From contig JAPPOR010000544.1 in assembly GCA_028817905.1 (NCBI GenBank), positions 1 to 27,303 of the forward strand: DNA of 27,303 nucleotides. The letters run 5' to 3'. Every line of letters starts with the position of its first letter. The stretch's first letter is position 1. The notes beneath the pieces are model-generated. The model saw only the letters and a list, made by a program, of their open reading frames with translations, had not been told where the DNA came from and searched no databases. The DNA is from Myxococcales bacterium (GTDB taxonomy: Bacteria > Myxococcota_A > Polyangia > Polyangiales > JAFGIB01). The position numbers and the translations under genes are program-made. Below are positions 1 through 24,690 of the stretch, piece after piece.

Positions 1-54
1 GCGGAGTCGAGCAGTTGTGCGAGGGCGCGTGATTTGGTGATGGATGCGGGCTAG
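1..54. repeat. Left copy of a ~54-bp inverted repeat, truncated by the window edge (partner at 9535..9588)
   Basis: The reverse complement of 1-54 is ctagcccgcatccatcaccaaatcacgcgccctcgcacaactgctcgactccgc. Positions 9535-9588 read ctagcccgcatccatcaccaaatcacgcgctctcgcacaactgctctccgc. The first 30 nt are identical, then there is one substitution and a 3-bp indel. Confidence 0.8.
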
Positions 55-776
55 GCCTGGTTCGCCTTTTGCTCATCATGTTCCACCTTGCCGTCCCGCA
101 GGTGAACGACGCGGGCGGCGTGGGCGACCACGCGCGCGTCGTGGGTCGAAAAAACAAAGGTCATCCCGCGTTCGGTCCGCAGGCGACGCATCATCGCTAT
201 CAGTGCTTCGGCGTTGTCGCTGTCCAGGTTGGCGGTGGGCTCGTCGGCGAGCACCAGGCGCGGCTCTCCGGCGACCGACCGCGCCACCGCGACCCGCTGC
301 TGCTGTCCACCGCTGAGCTCGCCTGGCCGCCGGTCCGCGAGTTCGGCAAGCCCCAACTCCGCCAGGGCCCGCTGTGCTCGCTTGCGGCGCTCGCGGGCTC
401 CGATGCCGCGCAGCTCCAGCACGAACTCGACGTTTTCCTGGGCGGTCAGGACCGGTACCAGGTTGTACGCTTGAAAGACGAAACCGATCTCCGAAAGGCG
501 CAGCCTGGCTCGCTGCCGCTTCGTGAGCGATCCCAGGTCCCGCCCCAGGACAGTGACCGACCCGGATGTCTGACGGTCCAGCGCGCCGATGAGGTTGAGC
601 AAGGTGGTCTTCCCGCTGCCGCTGGGGCCGACCAGCGCCGTGAACTCGCCTGCCCCAATCGCCAGGTCGACGCCCCGAAGAGCGTGGACCGAGATGTCAC
701 CTTGACCGAAGGTCTTCGTGACACCCCGCATGTGCAACAGCGCGCGTGTGGCATCCTGATCGTGGCTATGGGTCAT
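51..776 (-). CDS. ABC transporter ATP-binding protein (LolD/MacB/FtsE-like)
   Basis: The ORF 51..890 translation contains Walker A GPSGSGKTT, the ABC signature LSGGQQQRVAVAR and Walker B LVLADEPT. The start was placed at the internal Met (MTHSHD...). That gives an ATG at 776..774 overlapping the upstream permease stop (TGA 775..773) as ATGA. Confidence 0.85.
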   Translation of the reverse strand: MTHSHDQDATRALLHMRGVTKTFGQGDISVHALRGVDLAIGAGEFTALVGPSGSGKTTLLNLIGALDRQTSGSVTVLGRDLGSLTKRQRARLRLSEIGFVFQAYNLVPVLTAQENVEFVLELRGIGARERRKRAQRALAELGLAELADRRPGELSGGQQQRVAVARSVAGEPRLVLADEPTANLDSDNAEALIAMMRRLRTERGMTFVFSTHDARVVAHAARVVHLRDGKVEHDEQKANQA

Positions 777-2014
777 TGGGCTACTCGCAAGGCATCGGCG
801 GGGTCCGTACGGGTGGCGTACAGCGCCGGGTACAGGGCGGCGAATACTGTTGCGGTCAGGGATAGCAGCAGGGCATGGGGCAGGATCCATGGGCCGAGGT
901 CCGCGTACATGACGGGGTCCAAGAGCACACCGCTCAGCGCCATGTCGCCCTCGCCCATCATCTCGGCCAGGCGAATGCCAGACGTGGCGAAATGGTAGAC
1001 AACCGGCAATCCGATGAGCAGGCCCAAGGCCGCACCGATGGCGCCCACACTGAGTGACTCGGCGAGCACGATCGCCGCCATCTGCGCGGCACTGACACCC
1101 AGGGCCGACAGGACCGCGAACTCTTTGCGCCGCTCGAGGACCGAGGCGAGCTGCGCACTCATCACCCCCAGCAGGACCAGCACGATCACAAGACCCACGG
1201 TCACGCGTGCAAAGCCCTGATCCATCTGGTAGCCCGCGAGTAACTCGGGCGCGACCTCGTGCCAGTGCAGGATTCCCTCCGGGGGAGCAACGACTTCTGA
1301 GAGCGCAAGGGCGATGCGGTCGGCTTGCCGGTAGTCCGACAGCAGAATCGTGACCTCGCCGGCGCCCTGTGCGCCGCTGAGCTGCACGGCGTCTGCCCGC
1401 GGCACCTGGACCAGGCCTCCATCGATGTTGTCGCTACCGGTCTCGACCACCCCGACGATTCTCAGCAGCGCCGATTGCATCTGTCCCGAGGCGTCCATCG
1501 CCGTGACCAGCACCTCGTCGTCGAGCGCACCGTCGAGACGCGTCAGGAGCTTCTTGCCCACCACCGCCGTACCGCGCTCGCCGGGCCGCAGGTAGCGTCC
1601 CTGCGCGATCCGCCGCACGAACCTCAGGGCCGCGGGTTCGCTTGCGGGATCGACCCCCACGACCTCGGCCGCCGCGACCCGTGTTCCCAGTCCCAGCAAG
1701 CCCTGGACGCGGGTGCGCGGCGTGGCCACCGCCACGCCCGGCAGCGAGCGCGCGTGCGCCAAGGTCTGTTCCCAATTCTGCAGCCGCAAGCTTCGGTCGC
1801 GCCGGGCTTGCCAGCCGGCTGGCACAACCCGCAGATGGCCCGCGCCGCATTCGGCCGCAGCACGAATGATCATCTCCTCTTCGCCCCGGATCCATGCCAG
1901 CGTGATCAATCCGATGGCGCAGCCGATGCCCACGCCCAGGGCCGAAAGCAGCGTCCGGCGGACGTGGCGACCGAGTCCGCGCACGGCGTAGCGGGCCGAT
2001 AGAGCAAACCTCAT
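773..2014 (-). CDS. ABC transporter permease, FtsX-like (LolC/E-MacB family), second of two
   Basis: N-terminal TM helix, a large periplasmic region, then C-terminal TM helices typical of FtsX/MacB permeases. The start was trimmed from ORF 773..2341 to the Met (MRFALSARYAV...) at 2014. It overlaps the upstream gene's stop as ATGA (cat 2012-2014, tca 2011-2013). Confidence 0.8.
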   Translation of the reverse strand: MRFALSARYAVRGLGRHVRRTLLSALGVGIGCAIGLITLAWIRGEEEMIIRAAAECGAGHLRVVPAGWQARRDRSLRLQNWEQTLAHARSLPGVAVATPRTRVQGLLGLGTRVAAAEVVGVDPASEPAALRFVRRIAQGRYLRPGERGTAVVGKKLLTRLDGALDDEVLVTAMDASGQMQSALLRIVGVVETGSDNIDGGLVQVPRADAVQLSGAQGAGEVTILLSDYRQADRIALALSEVVAPPEGILHWHEVAPELLAGYQMDQGFARVTVGLVIVLVLLGVMSAQLASVLERRKEFAVLSALGVSAAQMAAIVLAESLSVGAIGAALGLLIGLPVVYHFATSGIRLAEMMGEGDMALSGVLLDPVMYADLGPWILPHALLLSLTATVFAALYPALYATRTDPADALRVAQ

Positions 2015-3246
2015 GCGCGCATCGCCTCCACGGGCTGCAGGGTGGCGGCGTGCAAGGCCGGCCACAGAGACGCTAGCAGGGACGTGACAATGACAGCCGA
2101 AAGGCCGCTGGCGACGGTTTGAAACGAAGTGCGCGGAAACACGACGACGCCGAAGTTCATGCCGGCCAAGCTGAGGTTCTGCAGTTCGTTGCCAGCGCCT
2201 CCGAGGCCGGCGAAGTCGACGCCGGACGAGGCGAGGAGGGCGTTTCCGGCGATTCCCAAGGTCGTTCCCAGCCCGGCACCGAGGGCTCCCAACAGCAGTG
2301 CTTCGAGCGTCAACATGCCCACGATTCGCTGGGGTGAGCATCCGAGGGCCAACAACATGCCGAGCTCGTGGTTGCGCTCGAACGCCGCCATCAACATCGT
2401 GTTGGCGACCCCCGCGGCGGCCGCCACGAATACCAACAGCAGCAGGATCCAGGTAAAGCCGCTGGTCATCTGCAGCATCGACGTGAGCTCGGGCGCAAGC
2501 TCATCCCAGCGCTTGATCTCGAGCTCGCCGAAGCTGGGCAGACCGCCGACACTGGCGGCCAGGTGCGGGGCCCCATCGGGGTCGGCGCCATGCAACGTGA
2601 TCTCGTGCGCCTCGTCGTCCATCACGAACAGGCTTTGGGCCGCTGGGAGTGTCATGATCAGACCCGTGCTTTCGACCAACTCCACGGGGCTGGGGAGCAG
2701 GCCGGCGACCTCATATAGGTCGTTGGCGATCGAGCCGTCAGCTGCCTGCCCCACAATCGCGAGTTCATCGCCTTCCTTGACGTTCATGCGGTGCGCGAGA
2801 CTCTTGCCGATCAGAACCTGGTCCGATCGCAGGTTGGTGAGCTCGGGTCGCGTGCCCAAAAGACCCCGGGCACCCGCTTCTCGCTTCGGTTGCAGTCCCA
2901 CCACGACGCCCATGAAGCCCTGCTCGCCGAGGGCGACCAGGACCGGCGCGTAGATGCGCGCGGAGGCTTCGGGTGCTTCTGGAAGTCCGCGCAGCTGGCT
3001 GAGCTTGTCACCGAGGTGCGTGATCGTAAGGTCCATGCTCTGCTGCTCGCGATAGTCGTGCGCGTGAACCTGCACATGACCGAGCATCGGGCCGGTGAAC
3101 GCGTCCACCATGGCGTCCGTGTATCCGTTCATCAGGCCGTCCATGAGAAGCACCCCGGCTTGGGCCAGGGTGATGGCGAATAGACCGAGAAAGGTTCGAC
3201 GGAAGTTGCGCCCGAGGTTGCGTCGCGCGATACGGAGCGTCGTCAT
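2011..3246 (-). CDS. ABC transporter permease, FtsX-like (LolC/E-MacB family), first of two
   Basis: 411 aa starting MTTLRIARRNLGRNFRRTFLGLFAITLAQ, with FtsX-type topology (N-terminal TM, periplasmic domain, three C-terminal TMs). The ATG at 3246..3244 overlaps the upstream stop at 3245..3243 (ATGA). Confidence 0.8.
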   Translation of the reverse strand: MTTLRIARRNLGRNFRRTFLGLFAITLAQAGVLLMDGLMNGYTDAMVDAFTGPMLGHVQVHAHDYREQQSMDLTITHLGDKLSQLRGLPEAPEASARIYAPVLVALGEQGFMGVVVGLQPKREAGARGLLGTRPELTNLRSDQVLIGKSLAHRMNVKEGDELAIVGQAADGSIANDLYEVAGLLPSPVELVESTGLIMTLPAAQSLFVMDDEAHEITLHGADPDGAPHLAASVGGLPSFGELEIKRWDELAPELTSMLQMTSGFTWILLLLVFVAAAAGVANTMLMAAFERNHELGMLLALGCSPQRIVGMLTLEALLLGALGAGLGTTLGIAGNALLASSGVDFAGLGGAGNELQNLSLAGMNFGVVVFPRTSFQTVASGLSAVIVTSLLASLWPALHAATLQPVEAMRA

Positions 3247-4025
3247 CGGGCACGCTCGAGCCGCTGAAGCGAGAACGTACCTGGCGGAACCTCGGCGTCG
3301 AAGTCGATGTCGAGGTAGCGCATGACCGTTCGCTTGCCCGGCTTTCCGACGGGCGTCAGCGTCATGCGTGTCGGGATGCGGTGCCCGTCCACGACGCGCA
3401 CCTGGTCGAATACGAGGGTGCGCGCATGCCGCATGCGGCGGTCAAAGTAGTGCGCTCGCCGCGGCAAGGTAAGATCCCCGTTGAAGGTGATGTCGATGCG
3501 CTTCCAGAGGCCCACGGTTTTTGCCTTCGCATCCAGCCGCACGAGCTTGCCCTCGTTGTCTGGCGCGTCGGTGGCCGCCGTGGCATGGAAGTCGTCTGCG
3601 TAGCTCGAGGCACGCACGAGGTCGTCATTGGTGAAGTCGCTGCCCATCCAGGGCGACAACATGGCGGACGGGGGAATACGGATGGTGCGCGCGATCCTGG
3701 GCAGGTAGTTCCAGAGATTCTTTTCCACGCGCAAGGTCGCCGTGCCCTTGTCGCGGGCGGGCGACTCGATCACGATAAGGGCCCGGTCCTTGCCCCGCGT
3801 CAGCGCCCGCATGCGGACGGTGCGCGAACGCCGTTTGGTCTCTACCGTCATCTCGATCCGAGCGATGCTGCTTTCCGATCGGTACAGCTCGTCTAGGCGT
3901 CGCAGGGCGGCCTGGAGCTCGCCTTGGCTCTTGCCCCCGGCATGCGCGTCCTGCCCGATCGCAGTGGCGGCGAGGGCACATGTCAGGGCCAGGGCGCCCG
4001 TGGCCCGCATCGTCCACGTACTCAT
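3243..4025 (-). CDS. Periplasmic LolA-like / outer-membrane lipoprotein-sorting-like protein with signal peptide
   Basis: Internal start MSTWTMRATGALALTCALAATAIGQDAHA looks like a signal peptide. The ~260-aa mature domain carries a WMGSDFTNDDL motif, recalled from LolA-like (PF17131-type) proteins that often accompany FtsX/RND exporters. Its ATG 4025..4023 overlaps the TetR stop 4024..4022 (ATGA). The long N-terminal extension of ORF 3243..4754 is rejected because it overlaps the TetR gene in another frame and is Arg/Pro/Gly-rich. Confidence 0.65.
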   Translation of the reverse strand: MSTWTMRATGALALTCALAATAIGQDAHAGGKSQGELQAALRRLDELYRSESSIARIEMTVETKRRSRTVRMRALTRGKDRALIVIESPARDKGTATLRVEKNLWNYLPRIARTIRIPPSAMLSPWMGSDFTNDDLVRASSYADDFHATAATDAPDNEGKLVRLDAKAKTVGLWKRIDITFNGDLTLPRRAHYFDRRMRHARTLVFDQVRVVDGHRIPTRMTLTPVGKPGKRTVMRYLDIDFDAEVPPGTFSLQRLERAR

Positions 4026-4657
4026 GGGCTCTCCCGGTTCACCGAGGGCGGAGCCGACAGGTCTCGGCACAGCTCGAGGGTCTTGAGCGATAGATGCTCG
4101 ACGTCCGCGGGGGAAAGGTCGTCGAGCCGGTCGGCGAACCACCGGTCGAGCCCCAGCAGAAGATGCGTCAGTCCGGTCGCGAGCATGTCGGTGGGCACGT
4201 CGTCTCGCACGGCACCCAGCGTTTGCCCGTGCTCGAGGGTCTCGATCACCGCAGCCTGTAGTTGCTGTCGGACGCGGTCGACCACCTGCTGGGCCCCGCT
4301 GTCGCCGTACAGGCAACGTCCCAGGGCGGAAAGGTCCGGCTCCGCAAACGTGAGCTCGGCGGCCCGCATGCCCCAGGCCCCCAGCGATTGCCAGAAGCCG
4401 TCCGCATCGTGGGCCGGCGGCGGCGGCCCGACGCGCGCGATGACGTCCGCGACCAGTTGGTCGATGACCGCACCGAACAGGTCCGCCTTGTCGGCGAAGT
4501 AGTAGTACATCGCGCCTTTGCTCACCTCGGTGGCCGCGATGATGCGGTTGTAACTCGCGCGCTCGAACCCGTGGGTGGCGAACTCCTTTCGCGCTGCCCG
4601 AAGAAGCTGATTGCGCTTGGTTTCCGGGAGCTTGAAGTAGCGTTCGAGGGGCGGCAT
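4022..4657 (-). CDS. TetR/AcrR family transcriptional regulator
   Basis: The N-terminal HTH region LLRAARKEFATHGFERASYNRIIAATEVSKGAMYYYFADK matches the TetR_N signature. Its 211-aa size is typical. It is the first gene of the ATGA-coupled exporter operon. Confidence 0.85.
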   Translation of the reverse strand: MPPLERYFKLPETKRNQLLRAARKEFATHGFERASYNRIIAATEVSKGAMYYYFADKADLFGAVIDQLVADVIARVGPPPPAHDADGFWQSLGAWGMRAAELTFAEPDLSALGRCLYGDSGAQQVVDRVRQQLQAAVIETLEHGQTLGAVRDDVPTDMLATGLTHLLLGLDRWFADRLDDLSPADVEHLSLKTLELCRDLSAPPSVNRESP

Positions 4658-4670
4658 CCGGGGCTCGTCC

Positions 4671-4727
4671 TAGACCAGTGAGGTTCTCTACCACTGGTCC
4701 AACCTTTGGTTCGACCAGTGGTCTAAA
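4671..4727. promoter_or_regulatory. Putative TetR operator array: GACCAGTG-N11-CACTGGTC plus the compact palindrome GACCA-G-TGGTC
   Basis: The inverted repeats lie 14-70 bp upstream of the TetR start codon (4657, minus strand). Half-site TAGACCAGTG at 4671-4680, its inverse CCACTGGTC at 4691-4699, and the palindrome GACCAGTGGTC at about 4713-4723. Confidence 0.45.
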
Positions 4728-4748
4728 AATGTCGCAAGTCCGCCGGGC

Positions 4749-4754
4749 TGTCAA
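4749..4754 (-). promoter_or_regulatory. Candidate -35 hexamer (TTGACA on the minus strand) for the TetR-exporter operon
   Basis: Perfect TTGACA on the minus strand. About 17-18 bp downstream is a weak -10 (CATTTT/ATTTTT) that overlaps the second operator palindrome. Confidence 0.25.
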
Positions 4755-4758
4755 GTCG

Positions 4759-4880
4759 TTCCGGTCTCCGGTTCCGGGTCCGGTCCCGGCTTCCGGCTTC
4801 CGGCTTCCGGCTTCCGGCTTTCGGCTTCCGGTCCCGGTCCCGGCTTCCGGCTTCCGGCTTCCGGCTTCCGGCTTCCGGCG
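4759..4880. repeat. Heptanucleotide tandem repeat (GGCTTCC)n, about 17 units with a few 6-nt and variant units
   Basis: Directly visible: ...ccggcttccggcttccggcttccggctttcggcttccggtcccggtcccggcttccggcttccggcttccggcttccggcttccggcgg. It begins right after the TAA stop (4882-4884) of the upstream minus-strand gene and ends just upstream of the candidate -35. The unit length is not a multiple of 3. Confidence 0.9.
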
Positions 4881-4881
4881 G

Positions 4882-7398
4882 TTATTCGCAGCCGGGTTGG
4901 TTGCCGCAGGTGAAGCGCACGTGCAGGTGGTCCAGATGGCCGGGGACGTGCTGCACCAGCGGCTGTCCTTGCCCGGGAGCTCGCGGGTATTCCAGCCAGG
5001 CCGCCAGATCGGTTTCGGAGATCAGGTTGTGCTTGCGCGCGTGGTCGTAGAGCAGCTTCTGCAGAGAGCGGTCGACGTAGATGGCCTCGACCTCACCGGT
5101 TGCCCTGAGCAAGTGCAACATGCGCCAGGTGCGGCGCAAGTGCAGATTGCCCGCGCCCATGTCCCGCCAATTGTAGGGCTGGCCGGGGGCTGGGAGCTGG
5201 GGATAGCCCAGGTCCACGTCGCGCCCCGACTGGTGACTGCCGTGGGGTGGCAAGGGCCCTCCCTTGCGCTGTGAGAGCGTCCCGACCAGGATCGGATCGG
5301 CTTGCGGTTCCAGCTTGGGCCACGCCCGCAGGATCGCGTCGAGCAACCCGATCGTGCGGCGTGTGGCCCACGTGCGCGCTCGCTTGGCCTTGATGATGCG
5401 GCCGTCGCCGGGTGGTAGCGGAGCGGAGCCCTGGATGCGCCCTCGGCTGGGGCTGCCGATCGAGCGGCTTTCCTTGCCTGGGACGTGTCGGTAGATCACC
5501 ACCTCGGTGCCGGCCTTGAGCTCCTTGTCCAGGTCCAGCTCCTGATTCAGCGCCTCCATCTCGCTGTGATAGATCTCGTATAGGTTGGCCACGAAGCGCG
5601 CGGTTCCCCCGCGTTTGATGGCGTACTTGACCTCGGTCGGTTGACGCTTCTGCCACGCTTCGATCGAGCGCGCCGCTGCGCGGATGCCGCGCGGGTCAGG
5701 TGGTGCGCTGGTGTCGTCGGCCGCCGCCGCCTGCGCTTGTGTCGATGAGGTGACCGCCGGCTTGTCGACCTCGGCAGAGGCCCCCTCTACCACCGATGCG
5801 CGCTCGCTGTGGGCGCGCACGATCCCGAGCGGCTCGTCCGTCACCACGACCGTACTACCCGAAAACGCGGTGCCTTCGGTCGACAGGCCGTGCCAGCCAC
5901 TGGGGACCGCTGGTAGGGTTCCGCTGAACATCCGGTGTGCGTCGGTGGGGCTTAGATTGATGCAGCCATGGGAGCGCGGGATGCCAAACCGCGTGTGCCA
6001 GAACGCAGCGTGCAGCGCGAAGCTTCCCTGAAAGTACTGGGTCCACGGCACATCTTCCACGCGGTAGCGGTTGTCGCCCGCCTCTGGTCCCAGGTCGGCC
6101 ATCGTGTCTGTCACGCGCTTGCGCCGGATCTGAAACACGCCCGTAGGGGTCGCGTGGTCCGCGATGCCGCTGGACATCAAGGTCGCGAACACGGGTGTGT
6201 CTCCTTCGTAGAGCACGGCGGTTTGCTGATCGAGGTCCAGATGCACCCACGGGTGGTCCGCTGGCACGCCCCTGGGCCGCGGCACGGCGTGGGCGACTGC
6301 GGCGAACCAAGCGCGCAAGTATCGGGGGCCGTTCGGCGTCTGGAGCTCGTGCATGATCCGCTCGCCCATGCGACGCGTCCCTAGCCAGGTGTCGAGCAAC
6401 GTCTGCCGCTCGATCTCGGGCAGGTCTGGGTCTGTGCGAAAGACCGTTGTGCCATCGTGACGTATAAACATGCGCTTCGGCTGGGCGGTGCGCACGGCCC
6501 AGGCGATTGGGAGGCGGCGATCGCCGGAGAGCTCTACCCCGTGGAAGTCGTGGCCGGTCCTGGGCTCGAGCCGGGCCTGCTTGATGTAGCGACCCTGGGT
6601 GGTGCGGACAAAGCGCCGCGAGGCCCGGACCTCCGTGCCGCTGACGGCTACGAAGAACCCGCGGTCCAGGTAGCGGGCGGTCACCTCGGTTCCGGGTGGA
6701 CCCCGATCGAGTTCGCCTGCGAGATAGCGTGCCGCCCGCTTGGGCTTCTTCTCGAGTAGCTCGTGGTAGTGCTGGGCTTTGGCGGCCGCCGCCCGTTGCT
6801 CCGAGCGGGACGGGAGCCGATGGTAGGAGGGCACGGTCGCCTCCTTGACGAAGTAGTAGTCATAGGGCAGGGGCTCATCGCGCGCCGGAGGTGGCAGCAC
6901 CATGGCACCGCGGGCGCGGGCCCTTTGTGCTTGCCCGTCCTTCCAGCCTCCGTCCGTGGGGGCCTCCAGAACGATGGCCGCGTCCTGGACTTCGAGGCCC
7001 TCGCGCGGGCACACGTAGCCGGTGGGGTGGATGCGGTAGTAGCCACCGTAACATTTCCGCCCTTCGGTTCGCTCCTCGGAGAGCCGCACACGCGAGCCCT
7101 GGCGGAGCCATCCGACGACCGCCGTCTCCGGATCGGGCCTCTGATAGACCTTGAGCTCGACCGTCGTTACCGCCCCGTGCTTGGGGTATTCGGCTTCCAT
7201 CTTCTCGCGGGCCAGCCGCTGCGCTTCGGCCCGTGCGGCTGCCTGCCGCCGGGCCTCCCGCTCGGCTTCCGTCTCGGGCACCTCTTCGGCGGACAACGCG
7301 CCCGGCTGCCCCGACTCGGCTCCATCGTCTCCGCAGGCGGACACGAGCACAATGCTGGCTATCGCCACAAGCGCGACTGCCCACGAACCACTGCCCAT
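4882..7398 (-). CDS. Lipoprotein fusing SH3b-like, L,D-transpeptidase (YkuD) and MepA-like (peptidase M74/LAS) murein endopeptidase domains
   Basis: Lipoprotein signal peptide MGSGSWAVALVAIASIVLVSAC. SH3b-like segment VYQRPDPETAVVGWLRQGSRVRL...GYYRIHPTGYV. YkuD catalytic motif RSHGCINLSP. C-terminal MepA-like zinc motifs HGSHQSGRDVDLGY and GHLDHLHVRF. The start was chosen at the Met preceding the lipobox (ATG 7398..7396). The ORF-track start at 7512 would run through the 11-bp repeats. Confidence 0.75.
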   Translation of the reverse strand: MGSGSWAVALVAIASIVLVSACGDDGAESGQPGALSAEEVPETEAEREARRQAAARAEAQRLAREKMEAEYPKHGAVTTVELKVYQRPDPETAVVGWLRQGSRVRLSEERTEGRKCYGGYYRIHPTGYVCPREGLEVQDAAIVLEAPTDGGWKDGQAQRARARGAMVLPPPARDEPLPYDYYFVKEATVPSYHRLPSRSEQRAAAAKAQHYHELLEKKPKRAARYLAGELDRGPPGTEVTARYLDRGFFVAVSGTEVRASRRFVRTTQGRYIKQARLEPRTGHDFHGVELSGDRRLPIAWAVRTAQPKRMFIRHDGTTVFRTDPDLPEIERQTLLDTWLGTRRMGERIMHELQTPNGPRYLRAWFAAVAHAVPRPRGVPADHPWVHLDLDQQTAVLYEGDTPVFATLMSSGIADHATPTGVFQIRRKRVTDTMADLGPEAGDNRYRVEDVPWTQYFQGSFALHAAFWHTRFGIPRSHGCINLSPTDAHRMFSGTLPAVPSGWHGLSTEGTAFSGSTVVVTDEPLGIVRAHSERASVVEGASAEVDKPAVTSSTQAQAAAADDTSAPPDPRGIRAAARSIEAWQKRQPTEVKYAIKRGGTARFVANLYEIYHSEMEALNQELDLDKELKAGTEVVIYRHVPGKESRSIGSPSRGRIQGSAPLPPGDGRIIKAKRARTWATRRTIGLLDAILRAWPKLEPQADPILVGTLSQRKGGPLPPHGSHQSGRDVDLGYPQLPAPGQPYNWRDMGAGNLHLRRTWRMLHLLRATGEVEAIYVDRSLQKLLYDHARKHNLISETDLAAWLEYPRAPGQGQPLVQHVPGHLDHLHVRFTCGNQPGCE

Positions 7399-7444
7399 TA
7401 AGGCCGTAAGCGTAGCAGAACCTGTGGGGCCCTGTCCCGCCCCA

Positions 7445-7488
7445 GGGGCACGCAAGGGGCACGCAAGGGGCACGCAAGCGGCACACAG
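7445..7488. repeat. Direct 11-bp repeat array GGGGCACGCAA x3 plus one degenerate copy (GCGGCACACAG)
   Basis: Visible in sequence at 7445-7488. It lies in the divergent intergenic region between the lipoprotein gene (start 7398, minus) and the FAH gene (start 7643, plus). Confidence 0.85.
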
Positions 7489-7642
7489 TGATGGCCCGCG
7501 CGCGCAAAACATTTAGCCAGCGGTCGCTGACAACGGTGACCGTGGGGTGCATAAGTGTTAGCCAAGAGGGCTGTCAAGCGAGCTCGTGCACACTTTGCCG
7601 ATGGGCAGGGGGCACGATGCGACCCAGCACAGGAGCGATGCG

Positions 7643-8536
7643 ATGAAGTTGGCCATGTTCACACACGCGGGCGGAACCCGGTTGGGGGTCGTGCAGGGGG
7701 ATATGATCGCCGATCTGGCGACTGCCGATCCAGCGTTGCCGCCGGAGCTCAAACGGCTGCTCGAACTCGGTCCAGCCGCGATGGAACGTGCTCGCGAGGC
7801 GGCCAAAAAGGCGCGGGACCTGTTGCCGCTGTCCAACGTGCGTTTGGAAGCGCCGATCGACCGGCCTAACAAGTTCATCGCGGTAGGTCTCAACTACGCG
7901 GATCATGTGGCTGAGACCGGCAGCGACAGGCCGGAGTTTCCCACCATTTTCAACAAGCAGAACACCTGTGTGAATCGCACCGGTGGCCCTGTGCACTTGC
8001 CACGGGTGTCTCCCGACATGTTGGACTACGAGGGTGAGATGGCGTTCGTGATCGGGCGGCGTTGCCGACACGTGCCGCGTGCGCGGGCTGCCGAGGTGAT
8101 CGCGGGCTACTGCATCGTCAATGACGTTTCGGTGCGCGATTGGCAGTTGCGTACGCCGACCATGACGATCGGCAAGTCCTTCGACACCCATGGACCGATC
8201 GGCCCGTGGCTGACCACGGCCGACGAGGTGGGCGATCCGCACGTCCTGTCACTGCGCACGACCGTCAACGGAGAGCAACGTCAAGCTAGCAACACAAGCC
8301 ACCTCATCTTCAACTGCTTCCAGCTGGTTGAGCACCTTTCCACGGCCTTCACGCTCGAGCCAGGGGACGTGATTTCGACCGGGACACCCTCGGGTGTGGG
8401 CCTCGCGATGAAGCCGAGGTGCATGCTCAAGGCAGGGGACGTGGTCCGGATCGAGATCGAAAGGCTCGGTGCGATCGAAAACCAGATCATCGACGAGCCC
8501 GGTGACACGGTCAGCTTGGGTGCGTTGAACGGATAG
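7643..8536 (+). CDS. Fumarylacetoacetate hydrolase (FAH) family protein (HpcE/HpaG 2-keto-4-pentenoate/oxohept-ene-dioate hydratase-like)
   Basis: FAH-family metal-binding motif DYEGEMAFVIG and a C-terminal GDVISTGTPSGVG motif. AGGAG at 7631-7635 sits 7 nt upstream of ATG 7643 (MKLAMFTHAGG...). The ORF-track start at 7586 has no ribosome-binding site. Confidence 0.85.
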   Translation: MKLAMFTHAGGTRLGVVQGDMIADLATADPALPPELKRLLELGPAAMERAREAAKKARDLLPLSNVRLEAPIDRPNKFIAVGLNYADHVAETGSDRPEFPTIFNKQNTCVNRTGGPVHLPRVSPDMLDYEGEMAFVIGRRCRHVPRARAAEVIAGYCIVNDVSVRDWQLRTPTMTIGKSFDTHGPIGPWLTTADEVGDPHVLSLRTTVNGEQRQASNTSHLIFNCFQLVEHLSTAFTLEPGDVISTGTPSGVGLAMKPRCMLKAGDVVRIEIERLGAIENQIIDEPGDTVSLGALNG

Positions 8537-9516: not shown

Positions 9517-9534
9517 GAGATATCGGGAGAGTGC

Positions 9535-9588
9535 TAGCCCGCATCCATCACCAAATCACGCGCTCTCGCACAACTGCTCTCCGCGCCG
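9535..9588. repeat. Right copy of the ~54-bp inverted repeat
   Basis: See the left copy. This copy sits 19 bp upstream of the LysR start codon. The left copy abuts the TAG stop (51-53) of the ABC ATPase gene. Confidence 0.8.
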
Positions 9589-9783
9589 CTTTCGCCTCAG
9601 TCAAAGGCACAGTGAGTATTCCCTCCGTCACCGATAGCCCTGCGAAGCCGATCACTTGCACGAGCATCACGTGCCTTGGTGAATGATCCGAGCTAGCCCG
9701 GATGACTCATGACTTCGGGGTCGGGCCCAACAAGGCCGCGGGCAACGGGTAAGGGGCAAGGAAGGGGGGGCGGACCGAAGCGG

Positions 9784-14236: not shown

Positions 14237-15970
14237 ATGTGGGAAGCGATCGCGCTCGCAGCTGACCTGGGTGTCCTGACCGTCGGGTACTGGCTTTCGG
14301 ATTGGGCCATACGGGGAGGGGGCTTGTTGGGGGCGCTCGGACGCATTCGGTTGCTGCACGATGGCCCGACCGCCCTGGTCTTCATGGCGACCTATGCGGC
14401 GCTCTCGCCCCTGTGGTCATGGGAGCACGTTCCGGAAGGCGAGACGCTCCGATGGGTCGCCGCGGTGCTGGGGCTGGCGCTCGCCTGGCGCGCGGCGACC
14501 CGTGACATCGACGTGGTGCGCGGCAATCGGCAGACGCTCGTGCGCTTGCTGGTGCTCGCCAGTGCGGTCCTCACGTGGCTGTCCCCCGGGATGCTGGTCA
14601 GTACGTGCCTGCTGCTAACGACGCCGTTTGGCATGTGGCAGCACCACGCAACCCTGCCCATGCGCGTGCTTCAGGCGCTGCTGGCGTTTGTCGTGTTGCA
14701 ACCGTTGGTCAGCGGGCTCGGCGCCCTGCGAGATGCGTCGGCGCTGTTCCTGTTTCTGGTAACGATTCAGGTCTCGCACTACGTGGTGACCGCCCTGGCC
14801 AAGGGACACCTGGGTCCGCGCTGGTACTCGTGGCCGCTGGACAACCGCCTGCACCACATCGCCGCGAGCGCCTACAGTTGGGGTTGGGCGCGCTTCGTGC
14901 CCTGGGCGCGCTGGCGGCGCGTGGTCGCCGTGGTACGCGCGCTGGAGGTGCCGCTGCAAGTGGTCGTCTTCTTGCTCGAAGCGCTTTCGCCACTTGCGCT
15001 GCTGCACGCCCATGCTTCGGTCGGCTTCAGCATCGCCTTCGCCGGCTTTCACCTGGGTGTGTTCCTGCTTTCGGGTCTGCTTTTCTGGGAGTGGATCGTG
15101 ACTGACCTCGTGCTTGCGATGGCCGTCTGGCGGCTTTCCGCGGGGGCGGCCGCGGTCGCCTTTGGTCCCGGGGCGCTGTTGCTGGGGGTCGTGCTCATGG
15201 TGGCATTCCCCCTGCGTCACAGGCTTTGGCGCCCGATGTCACTCGGCTGGTGGGACACGCCCTTCACCCAGCGCATGCATTGGCGGGTGCGCGGTCGCAG
15301 TGGCGCCATGTACGGCCTATACGCGGACTTCATGGACCCCCACGAGCGCATCTACGGCAAGGTCCATGGCTACTTCCTCGCACCCGTGCCGGTCCTGACC
15401 TACCATCTTGGGGAGGCCTTTCGTCACGAGCTGCGGGACGGCTTGCGCGCGGCCGGAGGCGATCCCGGGCGGCTGGACGCGCTGCGCGAACAGTTCGGGA
15501 TCGAGCCCCGCGACGCCCGCCTGCTGGAGAACCACGAGACCTATCTTCAGCGGTTTTGTTGGGAGCTCAATCGGGGGGCTCGCAAGCATGTGCTGCCGTC
15601 GCGGTTACGCTTCCTCAAGGCCCCGGGGGGGCAGTGCTACTACTGGGGTGACTTGCCGGCGTACCGGCGCCAGGAGCCCATCGAAGAACTCGAAGTGGTC
15701 TATCGCGAGGAATACTTCGACGGCGAGGCGCTGCAGCGGCTGCGCGATGAGGTGGTGTTGCGTGTCCCGATCGAGCGAAGCTCCACGCCGCCACGGGCCG
15801 CTCGCGAGCCCACCCCCAAGGAACTCGACGATCACCTCCTTTCGTTCGCCGCTGGACGCTTGATTCGCCTACCGGGGCTGGGCGACGGGCTGGTGCACGC
15901 GGATGACGGTGTGCCGGGGTCGCGGGCGGGCGCGGCCGCCGGACCCGTTGCGCCACCCGATGAGGGTTAG
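14237..15970 (+). CDS. Polytopic integral membrane protein (at least 8 predicted TM helices in the N-terminal ~330 aa) with a C-terminal soluble domain; family not recognised
   Basis: The 577-aa ORF has many hydrophobic 20-aa stretches rich in W/L/A. The C-terminal ~230 aa is hydrophilic. It is divergent from the kinase gene across a 202-bp intergenic region. No motif is confidently assignable from sequence alone. Confidence 0.55.
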   Translation: MWEAIALAADLGVLTVGYWLSDWAIRGGGLLGALGRIRLLHDGPTALVFMATYAALSPLWSWEHVPEGETLRWVAAVLGLALAWRAATRDIDVVRGNRQTLVRLLVLASAVLTWLSPGMLVSTCLLLTTPFGMWQHHATLPMRVLQALLAFVVLQPLVSGLGALRDASALFLFLVTIQVSHYVVTALAKGHLGPRWYSWPLDNRLHHIAASAYSWGWARFVPWARWRRVVAVVRALEVPLQVVVFLLEALSPLALLHAHASVGFSIAFAGFHLGVFLLSGLLFWEWIVTDLVLAMAVWRLSAGAAAVAFGPGALLLGVVLMVAFPLRHRLWRPMSLGWWDTPFTQRMHWRVRGRSGAMYGLYADFMDPHERIYGKVHGYFLAPVPVLTYHLGEAFRHELRDGLRAAGGDPGRLDALREQFGIEPRDARLLENHETYLQRFCWELNRGARKHVLPSRLRFLKAPGGQCYYWGDLPAYRRQEPIEELEVVYREEYFDGEALQRLRDEVVLRVPIERSSTPPRAAREPTPKELDDHLLSFAAGRLIRLPGLGDGLVHADDGVPGSRAGAAAGPVAPPDEG

Positions 15971-16283
15971 CCCGGGTCATTCACGACTTACGACGCCGCC
16001 TCGCTTGTTCTTCGACTCCACAGTGCTTTCGACCCCCTGCAATACGGGCAGTATGTGGGTCGGTGGCCGACAAGCCGTGGGAAGCCGAGTCCCGACGCGA
16101 TCCGACGCGGTGTTGATGGATAGCCCGGGCCAGACCGGTGCGAGGTGAATTCTGGCCAGCCGGGCGTGGGTCACGCTGGTAGTCCCCGCGGGTGGTCACG
16201 GAAAAGCCGGGACAATCGCGATCCCCTGTTGTAGATCCAGTGCGCTTGGCGGAAACGTCGGCAGGGAAGGGGGACGTGCCTTT

Positions 16284-16976
16284 TTGCAGGAGCTGCTGGC
16301 GCAAAGCTTCGCCTATCCAACGGTCGTGTGGAGCGTGCTGCTCGGCCTCGCGTCTTTCTATTGGTTGCTTGTTCTGGTGGGCGCGGTGGGTATGGAGGTA
16401 CTGGAGGGCAGCGTGGAAGGGGCGGCCGACGCTGCCGGTGCCGCTGGCGGGGGCCTAGCTGATATCGGTGAGGCAGCCGAGGCGGCGTCCAATGCGGCGA
16501 GCGCCCTGTCCGTCTTTGCCCTGCTGCGGCGACGGCGCGCTCCCCTGACGGTCAAGTTCTCCATGGTCACCCTGCTCGGGTGGTTGAGCTGCTGGTACGC
16601 GAGTGCGTGGCTCGGCGGGTTCGTCCCGGATGCCGTGCCGGTCGTCGCCTGGGGGACCGGCCTGCTCTTGCTAACCTTGCTCCTGGCGATTCCGGTGGCG
16701 GCCACGCTGCTGATCCCCCTCGAGCCACTCTTCGATACCCATGAAGCGCGGCGCCGCGGTCATCTCGTGGGCGAGGTCGTCGAAATCGAGACCAGTCGGG
16801 TGGACCGCAAGTTCGGCCAGGCGCGGCTCGAGGACGGTCAGGCGGGGATGATTCTCCAGGTGCGCTGCGACCCGAACCGGCAGCTCAGCCGAGGCAAGCG
16901 GGCCCTGATCCTGACCTACGACGAGGAGCAGGAGTTCTACGAAGTCGAACCGTACGATGACCTGTTGCAGAAATGA
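16284..16976 (+). CDS. NfeD/YqiJ-like membrane protein (N-terminal TM region plus C-terminal NfeD-type OB-fold)
   Basis: N-terminal and central TM helices, with a C-terminal GEVVEIETSRVDRKFGQARLEDGQAGMILQVRCD beta-rich segment typical of NfeD short-form OB domains. These classically pair with SPFH/flotillin genes. The ORF-track start is a TTG at 16284, preceded by GGAAGGGGGA (16266-16275). The true start could be a downstream GTG. The stop overlaps the flotillin start (ATGA at 16973-16976). Confidence 0.7.
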   Translation: MQELLAQSFAYPTVVWSVLLGLASFYWLLVLVGAVGMEVLEGSVEGAADAAGAAGGGLADIGEAAEAASNAASALSVFALLRRRRAPLTVKFSMVTLLGWLSCWYASAWLGGFVPDAVPVVAWGTGLLLLTLLLAIPVAATLLIPLEPLFDTHEARRRGHLVGEVVEIETSRVDRKFGQARLEDGQAGMILQVRCDPNRQLSRGKRALILTYDEEQEFYEVEPYDDLLQK

Positions 16977-19054
16977 GAGGTGACCAAGTGGACTTGATCC
17001 AACCGTGGGTGATCGGCTTCGCCCTGCTCGTACTCGTCGTGCTGGGCGCGCTGGTGATGTTTGCGCGCTTCTATCGCAAGGTGGACCAGGGCAAGGCGCT
17101 GATCATCAACACCATGGCCTCGGAGCCGATGGTGACGTTCACGGGCGGCATCGTCGTCCCCATCTTGCACCGCGCAGAGATCATGGAGATCTCGGTCAAG
17201 ACCATCGATATCGACCGGCGTGGCAAGGAGGGGCTGATCTGCAAGGACAATATCCGCGCCGATATCAAGGTTGCCTTCTTCGTACGCGTCAACAAGACCC
17301 GCGGCGACGTGCTCAAGGTGGCCCAGTCGATCGGATGCGACCGGGCGTCGGATCAGAAGACCCTCGAGACACTGTTCGTCGCCAAGTTCTCCGAGGCGCT
17401 CAAGACGGTCGGCAAGCGGATGGAGTTCGAAGAGCTCTATACGATGCGGGACGTGTTCCGAGATCAGATCATCGAGGTGATCGGCAAGGACCTCAACGGG
17501 TACGTCCTGGACGATGCCGCGATCGACTATCTGGAACAGACCCAGGTCGAGCTATTGGACCCGCAGAACATCTTGGATGCTCAGGGCATTCGCAAGATCA
17601 CCCAGATGACTGCGGCCCAGAGCGTCGCGACCAATGACCTGCGGCAGGAGGAACGCAAGTCGATCACGCGCCAGAACGTGGACGCCCAGGAGAAGATCCT
17701 GGAGATGGAGCGCCAGCAGGAAGACGCGGTCGCCAAGCAGAAGCGCGAGGTCGAGAGCATTCGCGCGCGCGAAGAGGCGGAAACACTGCGTGTGCAGGCC
17801 GAGGAGCGGCAGCGGTCGGAGCTGGCCCGCATCAAGGCCGACGAGGCGATCGCCGTCGAGGCGCAGAACCAGCAGCGCCAAGTCGAGATCGCCCAAAAGG
17901 CGCGCGAGCGGGCCGTCCAAGTCGAGGCGGAGCGGGTCGAGAAGGACCGTCAGCTCGAGGCGATCGCGCGCGAGCGCGAGACCGAACTGTCGCGCATCGA
18001 CAAGGAAAAATCGCTGGAGGTGGAGCGCAAGGTGATTGCAGACACCATCTCGCAGCGAATCGCGGTCGAAAAACAGGTGGCCGAGGAGGAGGAGCGCATC
18101 AAGGACCTGCGGGTGTTGGCGGAGGCCAAGCGCAACAAGGACGCGACGGTGATCGCCGCCGAGGCCCAGGCGCAGGAAGTGGTGGTCAGGCAGGTCAAGC
18201 AGGCGGAGGCGGAGGAGTTGTCGGCCAAGCACAAGGCCTCCGAGCAGGTCACGATCGCGGAGGCCGAGCTCGAGTCGGCCGACAGGCTGGCGCGCGCCAA
18301 GATCCGGCTGGCCGAGGGCACCCAGGCTGAACAGGCCGCCCAGGGGCTGGCCCAGGTGCGCGTTAAGGAAGCGGACGCGCTGGCGATCGAAAAAGAGGGC
18401 AAGGCGAACGCCGAGGCGAACCGGAATATGCTGGTCGCCGAAGCAGCGGGGGCCGAAGCCAAGGGGATGGCGGAGGTCAAGGTCAAGGAGGCCGAGGCCG
18501 CGGCCATCGAGCGAGTCGGTGCCGCCGAGGCCCAAGCGATCAAGGTCAAGATGGAGGCCGAGGCCGCTGGCCTGGCCAACAAGGCCGACGCGATGCAGAA
18601 GCTCGATGGCCTGGGTCGCGAGCACGAAGAGTTCAGGATACGCCTCGAAAAGGACAAGGAGGTCGAGCTTTCTTCGATCGCGGCGCGCAAGGAGGTGGCG
18701 GGTCGCAATGCGGACATTCTCTCGCAGGCAATGGCGAACGCGCGTATCAACCTCGTCGGAGGCGACGGTGCCTTCCTGGACCAGTTCTTCCGGGCCGTTT
18801 CCGTTGGCCAGTCCCTCGATGGTGTGGCCCACGGCAGCGATGCCGGCCGCGCGATGCTTACCGAGTATGTCGACGGGGACGCGAGCTTTCGCGAGGATTT
18901 GAAGGAGGTCCTGACGAAGGGGCGGTTCCAGCCGGAGGATCTGAAGAACCTCAGTCTGTCCGCGCTTTTGGCGCAGATGGCTGCCGGCGCGGACGGGACC
19001 AGGAAGAAGGCGCTGGAGGACCTCCTGCAGCGTGCCAAGGACTTGGAGTCCTGA
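16973..19054 (+). CDS. Flotillin / SPFH (band-7) family protein, YqiK/FloT-like (693 aa)
   Basis: N-terminal membrane anchor WVIGFALLVLVVLGALVMFARFYRK. SPFH domain. Long Glu/Ala/Arg/Gln-rich coiled-coil region with flotillin-type EA repeats (AEAEA...). ATGA-coupled to the upstream NfeD-like gene. Confidence 0.85.
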   Translation: MRGDQVDLIQPWVIGFALLVLVVLGALVMFARFYRKVDQGKALIINTMASEPMVTFTGGIVVPILHRAEIMEISVKTIDIDRRGKEGLICKDNIRADIKVAFFVRVNKTRGDVLKVAQSIGCDRASDQKTLETLFVAKFSEALKTVGKRMEFEELYTMRDVFRDQIIEVIGKDLNGYVLDDAAIDYLEQTQVELLDPQNILDAQGIRKITQMTAAQSVATNDLRQEERKSITRQNVDAQEKILEMERQQEDAVAKQKREVESIRAREEAETLRVQAEERQRSELARIKADEAIAVEAQNQQRQVEIAQKARERAVQVEAERVEKDRQLEAIARERETELSRIDKEKSLEVERKVIADTISQRIAVEKQVAEEEERIKDLRVLAEAKRNKDATVIAAEAQAQEVVVRQVKQAEAEELSAKHKASEQVTIAEAELESADRLARAKIRLAEGTQAEQAAQGLAQVRVKEADALAIEKEGKANAEANRNMLVAEAAGAEAKGMAEVKVKEAEAAAIERVGAAEAQAIKVKMEAEAAGLANKADAMQKLDGLGREHEEFRIRLEKDKEVELSSIAARKEVAGRNADILSQAMANARINLVGGDGAFLDQFFRAVSVGQSLDGVAHGSDAGRAMLTEYVDGDASFREDLKEVLTKGRFQPEDLKNLSLSALLAQMAAGADGTRKKALEDLLQRAKDLES

Positions 19055-19066
19055 GCCAGGCTGAGA

Positions 19067-24598: not shown

Positions 24599-24690
24599 CG
24601 GAGCCTCCCGAGGCTCGGCCCGAGCCTCGCCGGAGGCTGGCCCCGAGTCGTCCGCGAGACACAACGGCCACGGTGCCACGCAGCGCCTTG
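24599..24690 (+). terminator. Two tandem short GC hairpins, then a 9-bp stem, right after the giant gene's stop; possible intrinsic terminator without a U-tract
   Basis: gagcct-cccg-aggctc and agcct-cgccgg-aggct at 24601-24640, and gtgccacgc...gcgtggcac around 24673-24700. There is no T-run, which is usual for a high-GC genome. Confidence 0.3.

What the first reader, a model, noticed from the sequence alone, without database searches (positions are those of the whole stretch)
4759..4880. About 120-bp heptanucleotide microsatellite (GGCTTCC)n wedged between a cell-wall hydrolase gene and the exporter operon promoter
There are about 17 tandem units. Most are the perfect 7-mer cttccgg/ggcttcc, with a few 6-mer (tcccgg) variants. 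The tract starts immediately after the stop codon (4882-4884) of the upstream gene and ends just before the candidate -35 hexamer at 4754..4749. Long perfect short-unit repeats are rare in high-GC chromosomes and are hot spots for slipped-strand mispairing. The tract lies upstream of the -35, so copy-number changes would not alter -35/-10 spacing. They could still change the distance or phasing to upstream activator sites, alter read-through from the upstream gene, or form non-B DNA. The unit contains CCGG, so the tract carries a dense array of HpaII/MspI-type methylation sites. It is not coding: the unit is not a multiple of 3, and the plus-frame ORF 4678..5274 is an artefact of translating the repeat.
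Basis: seen in the sequence. Interest (0 to 1): 0.55.

Follow-up and report, generated by a model that had tools for sequence, protein, structure and literature searches.

The report
Variable heptamer repeat between two genes
A real, non-coding 7-base tandem repeat fills the gap between a cell-wall enzyme gene and the promoter of a TetR-controlled exporter operon in an uncultured myxobacterium; its length differs between co-occurring strains, but nothing shows it does more than an ordinary unstable bacterial repeat.

Summary
Window 4759-4881 holds 18 head-to-tail units: 10 perfect CTTCCGG, two 7-mer variants and six 6-mer variants. They form two roughly 54-bp higher-order blocks. The tract runs from 2 nt after the stop codon of a YkuD/M74 cell-wall enzyme gene to 4 nt before a -35 hexamer. 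That promoter (TTGACA-17-CATTTT, with a TetR operator at the start site) is supported by conservation in distant orthologues. The tract is far beyond chance and non-coding.

The window is a whole contig of a "Myxococcales bacterium" MAG. Metagenome contigs of the same population (99-100% identical) carry a short allele with 2 perfect units instead of 10 (75 bp shorter), or break exactly at the tract. The long allele equals the short one plus 3 units, a 54-bp block duplication and 4 substitutions.

Orthologues of either flanking gene have no tract, and the gene junction itself is lineage-specific. The promoter-proximal ~30 nt are nearly the same in both alleles. No operator lies upstream of the tract. 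I conclude it is an ordinary slippage-prone intergenic repeat, probably near-neutral, that also gives the upstream mRNA a hairpin-forming 3' tail. A regulatory role is unproven.

The parts
4759..4881 (-). Heptanucleotide tandem repeat. It reads (GCCGGAA)n on the gene strand and (CTTCCGG)n on the plus strand. It has 18 units plus a terminal CGG.
   Evidence: TRF period 7, 18 copies, score 158. Unit decomposition. Chance test.
4844..4878 (-). Distal run of 5 perfect units next to the hydrolase stop codon. The short allele has only 2 units here.
4778..4831 (-). A 54-bp higher-order block present in the long allele but absent from the short allele. On the minus strand it reads GCCGAAA, 4x GCCGGAA, GCCGGGA, CCGGAC, CCGGAA. 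It is a diverged duplicate of the neighbouring block 4832-4885-ish.
   Evidence: TRF period 54. Self-BLAST 88-90% identity. Duplication model reproduces the long allele with 4 substitutions.
4759..4777 (-). Promoter-proximal degenerate units (minus strand CCGGAA CCGGAGA CCGGAA, followed by CGAC). They are shared by the long and short alleles, so the DNA just upstream of the -35 does not change with copy number.
   Evidence: Allele comparison.
4882..7398 (-). Upstream gene: YkuD L,D-transpeptidase plus Peptidase_M74 murein endopeptidase fusion. The 838-aa form is the one called in all related assemblies. The 876-aa ORF extends to 7512.
   Evidence: Pfam. Gene calls in L001-L010. Homologues.
4749..4754 (-). 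-35 hexamer TTGACA of the TetR operon promoter.
   Evidence: Conserved cTTGAC in 10 of 11 aligned upstream regions, including 8 distant TetR relatives. The strict sigma-70 scan found nothing, so the hexamer is inferred from conservation.
4726..4731 (-). Inferred -10 hexamer CATTTT, 17 nt from the -35. The pattern yAnnnT is kept in the orthologues.
   Evidence: Alignment. Inference.
4671..4725 (-). Three copies of the operator palindrome (TA)GACCAnTGGTC. They lie between the -10 and the TetR start codon and overlap the predicted start site.
4022..4657 (-). TetR-family regulator, the first gene of the operon.
   Evidence: Pfam TetR_N 2e-13.
51..4025 (-). Rest of the operon: a LolA-like protein, two FtsX/MacB_PCD permeases and an ABC ATPase.
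   Evidence: Pfam. The same five-gene operon occurs in relatives.

Best explanation
The tract is a non-coding variable-number tandem repeat (a microsatellite with minisatellite-like higher-order structure). It grew by replication slippage and one block duplication in unconstrained spacer DNA, at a lineage-specific junction between two gene blocks.

Shown:
- It is tandem, far beyond chance and non-coding.
- It fills the whole spacer from the stop codon to the -35.
- It differs in length between near-identical strains of one natural population.
- The long allele can be derived from the short one by +3 units, one 54-bp duplication and 4 point changes.

Inferred:
- Each unit carries the self-complementary CCGG. 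Slipped strands can therefore fold back, which favours further slippage.
- The same property gives the hydrolase mRNA a long imperfect 3' hairpin.
- That hairpin may damp read-through into the TetR-controlled promoter and protect the 3' end. This looks like a by-product rather than a selected function.
- Copy-number changes occur in the distal perfect units. The roughly 30 nt next to the -35 and the core promoter stay the same, so the promoter's own strength is expected to be largely insensitive to tract length.
For: - Tandem structure and significance.
- Non-coding.
- Polymorphism: four contigs (three ENA assemblies and one Logan contig, made with different assemblers) cross a 148-bp intergenic region with 2 perfect units, against 224 bp in the window. 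They also carry linked flank differences.
- Contigs 100% identical to the window (L005, L009) stop exactly where the two alleles diverge: after ...GCCGGAAGCCGG, and at the A/G site just before CTTGACA. This fits both alleles coexisting in those samples.
- The long allele contains variant units (GCCGAAA, CCGGAC) that are absent from the short allele, so it is not a graph artefact of the short one.
- No tract occurs upstream of the conserved promoter in TetR orthologues, nor downstream of hydrolase orthologues. Their neighbours all differ.
- The same heptamer forms tracts of 3-30 units in many unrelated phyla, mostly outside likely ORFs. This suggests a sequence-intrinsic tendency to expand rather than a lineage-specific function.
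- RNA fold of the long allele is -75.3 kcal/mol with z = -4.9. The short allele gives -36 kcal/mol with z = -3.0.
Against: - Neutrality is an absence-of-evidence argument. No expression data, reads or isolates were available.
- The long allele rests on a single short-read MAG assembly, so the exact unit counts in the two perfect runs could be off.
- The tract's position is suggestive. It abuts a promoter and a stop codon, and both alleles persist in one population. That would also fit selection for variability.
- Interruptions of the perfect runs argue against very high switching rates, but they do not rule out function.
Confidence: 0.62

Rival explanations
1. Contingency locus. Tract length tunes expression of the TetR/LolA-like/MacB-type ABC operon, or of read-through from the hydrolase gene, in a graded way. 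The models are the H. influenzae hmw1A heptamer and the N. meningitidis nadA TAAA tract. Coexisting alleles would be maintained because they give different expression states.
For: - The tract directly abuts a footprint-supported promoter.
- Length differs between co-occurring strains.
- If transcribed from the upstream gene, longer tracts form a much more stable RNA hairpin (-75 vs -36 kcal/mol).
- Precedents exist for heptamer and upstream-of-promoter SSR control (PMC12721329, PMC2791445).
Against: - The tract is not between the -35 and -10, not in a 5'-UTR of the operon and not in an ORF.
- No operator copy lies upstream of it, so there is no nadA-type spacing between regulator sites.
- The roughly 30 nt next to the -35 are almost the same in both alleles.
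- Perfect runs are at most 5 units and are interrupted.
- The alleles differ between strains about 0.5% diverged, not demonstrably within a clone.
- The tract is absent from all orthologous promoters.
Confidence: 0.15
2. Selected 3' structure. The CCGG-based hairpin array acts as a U-tail-less terminator, an insulator or a 3'-end stabiliser for the hydrolase mRNA. This would keep the TetR-repressed promoter free of read-through. Repeat expansion would simply be how the structure arose.
For: - The tract begins 2 nt after the stop codon, so it must be transcribed.
- Both alleles fold significantly better than shuffles.
- Cyanobacterial 7-bp STRR repeats are likewise hairpin-forming intergenic elements suspected of affecting transcripts (PMC2670836).
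- In other genomes the heptamer's tracts often sit a few bases to a few tens of bases after a stop codon.
Against: - There is no U-run, and the terminator scan found nothing.
- The helices are 4-bp CCGG stems separated by 3x3 internal loops, a weak architecture.
- Hydrolase orthologues manage with unrelated downstream sequences.
- The 3'-end/convergent-gene trend in other genomes is not significant against a length-weighted background.
Confidence: 0.15
3. Assembly artefact. The long tract, or the short one, is produced by mis-assembly of short reads, and there is no real polymorphism.
For: - Five of eight ENA scaffolds have a 100-N gap at the tract.
- The same assemblies also place N-gaps with overlapping ends at the invariant 11-bp repeat, so these scaffolds are fragile at repeats.
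- The long allele is seen in only one assembly.
Against: - The short allele has only 14 bp of perfect repeat, shorter than any assembly k-mer, so it cannot be a collapsed long array.
- It was recovered by two pipelines in five samples, with linked flank variants.
- The long allele carries private variant units.
- The break points coincide with the allele divergence points.
Confidence: 0.05
4. Protein-binding or methylation array. The CCGGAA units are iterated binding sites for a regulator or nucleoid protein, or a dense block of CCGG methylation sites with epigenetic effect on the adjacent promoter.
For: There are 17 CCGG sites in 122 bp against 0.9 expected. Three units span 21 bp, about two helical turns, so every third unit faces the same side (inference).
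Against: - No methyltransferase or candidate regulator for this motif is encoded in the window.
- The motif is absent from orthologous promoters.
- The CCGG density is an automatic consequence of the repeat unit.
- A 7-bp spacing puts neighbouring sites 240 degrees apart.
Confidence: 0.03

Closest known systems
Bacterial intergenic VNTR / simple sequence repeat loci (as used in MLVA typing; reviewed in PMC3899988 and PMC12699852)
   Same: Head-to-tail short units, interrupted by variant units. Copy number differs between closely related strains. Located in non-coding DNA. A hotspot for indels.
   Different: Nothing essential. The host is an uncultured free-living Myxococcota lineage rather than a pathogen, and the unit is a GC-rich heptamer with a self-complementary CCGG core.
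Haemophilus influenzae hmw1A/hmw2A (ATCTTTC)n heptamer SSR (PMC12721329, PMC8262952)
   Same: Heptanucleotide unit, a dozen or more copies, in the regulatory region upstream of an operon. RNA hairpin formation by the repeats is central there, and possible here.
   Different: There the tract lies downstream of the active promoter, is transcribed in the 5'-UTR, pairs with a G-rich arm and is cut by RNase III. Expression falls with repeat number. Here the tract lies upstream of the -35, is transcribed only as the 3' tail of the preceding gene, and pairs with itself. No expression data exist.
Neisseria meningitidis nadA TAAA tract (PMC2791445)
   Same: An SSR located upstream of the core promoter, so that length does not alter -35/-10 spacing. 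The regulated gene is under a ligand-responsive repressor.
   Different: In nadA, NadR operators and an IHF site flank the tract, so length changes operator spacing. Here all operator copies are downstream of the -35 and none is upstream of the tract. The DNA upstream of the tract is coding sequence.
Cyanobacterial STRR (short tandemly repeated repetitive) 7-bp repeats (PMC2670836)
   Same: Tandem 7-bp units in intergenic regions, able to form hairpins, function unknown and possibly acting on transcripts.
   Different: STRRs are multi-locus families typical of filamentous cyanobacteria, and their unit sequences differ. Here only one locus is seen in 27 kb. Whether the genome holds more could not be tested.

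Membership tests
Bacterial VNTR / simple sequence repeat | Head-to-tail copies of a short unit, beyond chance | tested here: met
   TRF period 7, 18 copies, score 158. Perfect period-7 run of 33 positions vs at most 15 in 200 shuffles.
Bacterial VNTR / simple sequence repeat | Copy number differs among closely related genomes | tested here: met
   10 vs 2 perfect units, 75 bp difference, between contigs 99.2-99.6% identical.
SSR-mediated phase-variable (contingency) locus | Tract placed where length changes reading frame, -35/-10 spacing or spacing between regulator sites | tested here: not met
   The tract lies after the stop codon and upstream of the -35. Operators occur only at 4671-4725, with none upstream of the tract.
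SSR-mediated phase-variable (contingency) locus | High-frequency reversible length changes within a clonal population | not testable with these tools
   Only assemblies are available. Contig breaks at the allele divergence points hint at mixed alleles within samples, but those samples are communities, not clones.
SSR-mediated phase-variable (contingency) locus | Expression of the linked gene depends on repeat number | not testable with these tools
   No expression data.
hmw1A-type 5'-UTR heptamer SSR | Repeat transcribed within the 5'-UTR of the regulated gene, downstream of its promoter | tested here: not met
   The conserved -35/-10 lie between the tract and the TetR gene.
nadA-type distal promoter SSR | Tract upstream of the core promoter | tested here: met
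   The tract ends 4 nt upstream of the -35.
nadA-type distal promoter SSR | Repressor operators on both sides of the tract | tested here: not met
   GACCANTGGTC with up to 1 mismatch matches only at 4689-4723 in the whole window.
Intrinsic (Rho-independent) terminator | GC-rich hairpin | tested here: met
   MFE -75.3 kcal/mol, z = -4.9. Short allele -36 kcal/mol, z = -3.0.
Intrinsic (Rho-independent) terminator | U-run immediately 3' of the hairpin | tested here: not met
   The terminator scan found 0 sites in 4300-5300. No T-run follows the tract on the minus strand.
Dispersed intergenic repeat family (REP/MITE/STRR-like) | Many copies at different loci of the same genome | tested here: inconclusive
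   There is no second tract of 2 or more units in the 27.3-kb window or in the strain contigs.
Known RNA family (Rfam) | Match to a curated covariance model | tested here: not met
   No hit at E<=1 in 4000-8000.

The most novel reading that the evidence does not exclude
The tract is a genuine contingency element in a free-living, non-pathogenic myxobacterium. Slippage-driven length variants coexist in the natural population. Through the length of the CCGG hairpin array at the end of the hydrolase transcript, they would set how much transcription leaks past the TetR-repressed promoter into the LolA-like/MacB-type export operon. That would be stochastic, heritable tuning of an envelope-export system outside the host-pathogen context where such loci are known.
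Probability: 0.1. Interest if true: 0.55.

Novelty: new member of a known kind. Interest (0 to 1): 0.28.

Why it matters
This is mainly a clean, documented example of a polymorphic heptanucleotide VNTR in an uncultured Myxococcota population. It has three practical uses:
- It could serve as a strain marker.
- It explains why short-read assemblies of this population break at this spot.
- It shows that (GGCTTCC)n tracts recur, mostly in intergenic DNA, across many high-GC phyla.

If tract length turned out to affect read-through or operon expression, it would extend SSR-based contingency regulation to free-living soil or sediment bacteria. No evidence for that was found.

Tried and rejected
- **Coding repeat.** Rejected. 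The tract lies after the TAA of a complete protein, and the plus-strand ORF has no family support.
- **Known RNA family.** No Rfam hit.
- **Canonical terminator or sigma-70 promoter by consensus scan.** None found. The promoter was instead established by conservation.
- **Conserved regulatory element.** Rejected. No tract occurs at orthologous TetR promoters or after orthologous hydrolase genes.
- **nadA-like flanking operators.** Rejected.
- **Lineage-specific motif.** Rejected. The same heptamer forms tracts in Streptomyces, Acidobacteriota, Gemmatimonadota, Binatia and others.
- **Enrichment of such tracts at gene 3' ends or between convergent genes.** There is a trend (12 convergent: 3 divergent: 18 tandem), but it is not significant against the length-weighted background of the same loci, so it is not claimed.
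- **Polymorphism of the neighbouring 11-bp repeat.** None. The N-gaps there are overlapping contig ends.
- **Further alleles via the hydrolase protein look-up.** This returned only contigs already in hand.
- **Sample origin via literature search on the accessions.** Nothing found.

Full report
**What is there**

Window 4759-4881 is a tandem array. Tandem Repeats Finder gives period 7, 18.0 copies, 87% matches and score 158. It also detects a 54-bp higher-order period with 2.3 copies and score 200. Read on the plus strand and split after each CGG, the units are:
- 10x CTTCCGG
- 1x CTTTCGG
- 1x TCTCCGG
- 3x TCCCGG
- 2x TTCCGG
- 1x GTCCGG
- a terminal CGG

The layout on the plus strand is as follows. 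Five degenerate units lie next to the promoter (4759-4789). They are followed by four perfect units, one variant and one perfect unit (4790-4831). Two TCCCGG units come next (4832-4843), then five perfect units (4844-4878), then CGG, then the stop codon TTA (TAA on the minus strand) at 4882-4884.

The longest perfect period-7 self-match is 33 positions. No period from 4 to 12 exceeded 15 in 200 dinucleotide-preserving shuffles of the window. The tract carries 17 CCGG sites where 0.9 would be expected. No second stretch of two or more units exists in the window.

**Context**

All relevant genes are on the minus strand. The 876-aa ORF 4882..7512 has a YkuD L,D-transpeptidase domain (1.5e-16) and a Peptidase_M74 murein endopeptidase domain (3.3e-12) that reaches residue 871. 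Related assemblies call it as 838 aa, which places the start at 7398.

Downstream lie five genes:
- a TetR regulator (4022..4657)
- a LolA-like protein
- two FtsX/MacB_PCD permeases
- an ABC ATPase

The long minus-strand ORF 3243..4754 and the plus-strand ORF 4678..5274 are artefacts. The first matches only LolA_like, in its C-terminal half. The second matches nothing. No Rfam family matches the region.

**Promoter**

The consensus scan found no sigma-70 site, but conservation does. Upstream regions of TetR relatives at about 40-65% protein identity were aligned with the window and with the short-allele contig L001. Ten of the 11 aligned sequences share cTTGAC, then 17 nt, then a yAnnnT hexamer, then TTAGACCAnnGGTCgAAC.

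In the window these elements are:
- TTGACA at 4754..4749
- CATTTT at 4731..4726
- three operator palindromes between 4671 and 4725

This is a classical autorepressed TetR promoter.

**Origin and polymorphism**

The TetR protein is 100% identical to an NCBI entry from a "MAG: Myxococcales bacterium" whose longest contig is 27,303 bp, so the window is a whole MAG contig. Relatives of both flanking genes are Sandaracinaceae-like Myxococcota.

The same TetR is encoded on contigs from eight ENA metagenome assemblies (ROBB21-1, SAMN13943220-28) and two Logan assemblies. These contigs are 97-100% identical to the window. The contigs behave in three ways at the tract:
- Four contigs (L001, L002, L007 and the Logan contig L010) cross a 148-bp intergenic region, against 224 bp in the window. 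They have only two perfect units followed by the degenerate units, plus linked flank differences: G instead of A just before CTTGACA, and a 1-bp indel near the TetR start.
- Two scaffolds (L006, L008) have a 100-N gap, but the contig to the right of the gap spans the whole short allele.
- Three scaffolds (L003-L005) and the Logan contig L009 include two scaffolds (L003, L005) and L009 that match the window at 99.9-100%. All four stop exactly at the two points where the long and short alleles diverge.

The short allele cannot be a collapsed long array, because its perfect repeat is only 14 bp, shorter than any assembly k-mer. The long allele cannot be a graph walk through the short one, because it contains private variant units (GCCGAAA, CCGGAC).

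A simple model reproduces the long allele exactly: short allele, plus 3 units (21 bp), plus duplication of a 54-bp block, plus 4 substitutions.

One caveat applies. The same ENA scaffolds also put N-gaps, with overlapping ends, at the neighbouring 11-bp repeat, which is not polymorphic. Gaps alone therefore prove nothing. The argument rests on the contigs that cross the tract and on the positions of the break points.

**Is the tract conserved, and therefore likely functional?**

No. The five-gene operon is conserved in relatives at 60-65% TetR identity, but they have different upstream neighbours and no tandem repeat before the -35. Hydrolase orthologues at 59-66% identity are followed by three different genes and ordinary short spacers.

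The hydrolase-to-TetR junction is thus lineage-specific. The tract occupies precisely the spacer created at that junction.

**Is the motif special to this lineage?**

No. The hits include Streptomyces, Acidobacteriota, Gemmatimonadota, Binatia and Halomonas, among others. Tracts range from 3 to 30 units, and several are as long as this one.

I built a GC3-based gene proxy and calibrated it on the window. By this proxy, 55 of 72 tracts in high-GC loci are not covered by a likely ORF. There is a trend towards gene 3' ends (12 convergent, 3 divergent, 18 tandem). It is not significant against the length-weighted background of the same loci, so I do not claim it.

The recurrence suggests that this CCGG-containing unit expands readily wherever it arises.

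**Mechanism**

Each unit contains the self-complementary CCGG. As RNA, the minus strand across the long allele folds at -75.3 kcal/mol (z = -4.9), and the short allele at -36 kcal/mol (z = -3.0). Both folds are stacks of 4-bp helices separated by small internal loops. As DNA the plus strand gives z = -2.7.

Fold-back of slipped strands is the textbook route to expansion and contraction. That step is inferred from established knowledge, not tested here.

Because the tract starts 2 nt after the stop codon, it must be transcribed as the tail of the hydrolase mRNA. The hairpin array may slow read-through into the TetR promoter or protect the 3' end. However, there is no U-run, and orthologues do without it.

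Length variation affects the distal perfect units. The roughly 30 nt adjoining the -35 are the same in both alleles apart from two small differences. No operator lies upstream of the tract. I therefore expect little effect on the promoter's intrinsic activity.

**Comparison with known systems**

The tract meets the definition of a bacterial VNTR/SSR. It resembles three known systems in some respects:
- The hmw1A heptamer tract of H. influenzae, in unit length and hairpin logic. That tract, however, lies in the 5'-UTR, downstream of the promoter (PMC12721329).
- The nadA TAAA tract of N. meningitidis, in lying upstream of the core promoter. That tract, however, is flanked by operators, which are lacking here (PMC2791445).
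- Cyanobacterial 7-bp STRR repeats, in being hairpin-forming intergenic heptamers of unknown function (PMC2670836). A multi-locus family could not be shown here.

General surveys find that STRs are not enriched in bacteria but are indel hotspots (PMC12699852), which fits.

**Verdict**

This is a real, well-placed, polymorphic but ordinary intergenic heptanucleotide VNTR. It is a new member of a known kind. The speculative functional consequences remain untested, and the one that could be tested (regulator sites on both sides of the tract) was not met.

Noticed in passing
window 7444-7484: An 11-bp tandem repeat, AGGGGCACGCA x3.7 (TTGCGTGCCCC on the minus strand). It lies 46-86 nt upstream of the likely true start (7398) of the hydrolase gene, in the divergent intergenic region shared with the FAA-hydrolase gene. 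The period equals one helical turn, so it may be a direct-repeat regulator site. Copy number is identical in all strain contigs that cross it. The N-gaps there in ENA scaffolds are overlapping contig ends.
   Followed up: partly
window 9534-9682 and window 1-54; L001 10604-10756: A MITE-like dispersed element of about 150 bp with terminal inverted repeats of about 20 bp (CTAGCCCGCATCCATCACCAA ... TTGGTGATGGATGC.GGCTAG). One copy lies between the LysR gene and the Ser/Thr kinase gene. A second copy (87% identity) lies just downstream of the ABC ATPase gene and is truncated by the left end of the contig, which probably explains why the contig ends there.
   Followed up: partly
window 14237-24598 (+): A four-gene cluster. 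Three proteins (577, 230 and 693 aa) have no Pfam hit. They are followed by a 1843-aa protein with DUF3686 ('ATPase involved in DNA repair', 2.4e-200), DUF7902 and an AAA domain. Only weak PADLOC hits were found (LmuB 3.9e-5). Function is unknown; it could be a defence or DNA-maintenance system.
   Followed up: partly
window 4671-4725: Three copies of the palindrome (TA)GACCAnTGGTC lie between the -10 and the TetR start codon. The promoter-proximal one is conserved as TTAGACCAnnGGTCgAAC in TetR relatives down to about 40% protein identity, which gives a ready-made operator prediction for this TetR/LolA-like/MacB-type operon family.
   Followed up: yes
window 4882-7512: The mechanical 876-aa ORF over-extends the hydrolase gene. 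All related assemblies call an 838-aa product starting at 7398. The YkuD plus Peptidase_M74 fusion is kept only in a handful of relatives at 56-66% identity; most homologues are YkuD-only proteins of about 500 aa.
   Followed up: partly
window 24601-24647 and 24854-24889: Further short tandem repeats: a 12/23-bp unit x2-3.5 and TGCATTGGGCCT x3. They lie near the 3' end of the 1843-aa gene and the start of a trypsin-like protease gene. Not examined.
   Followed up: no
L011-L130 (genome-contig hits): (GGCTTCC)n tracts of 3-30 units occur in many phyla. Several single MAGs, especially long-read Acidobacteriota MAGs such as MFD00072.bin.2.96 and MFD05567.bin.2.14, carry three or four separate tracts. 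This hints that in some genomes the heptamer behaves as a multi-locus repeat family.
   Followed up: partly
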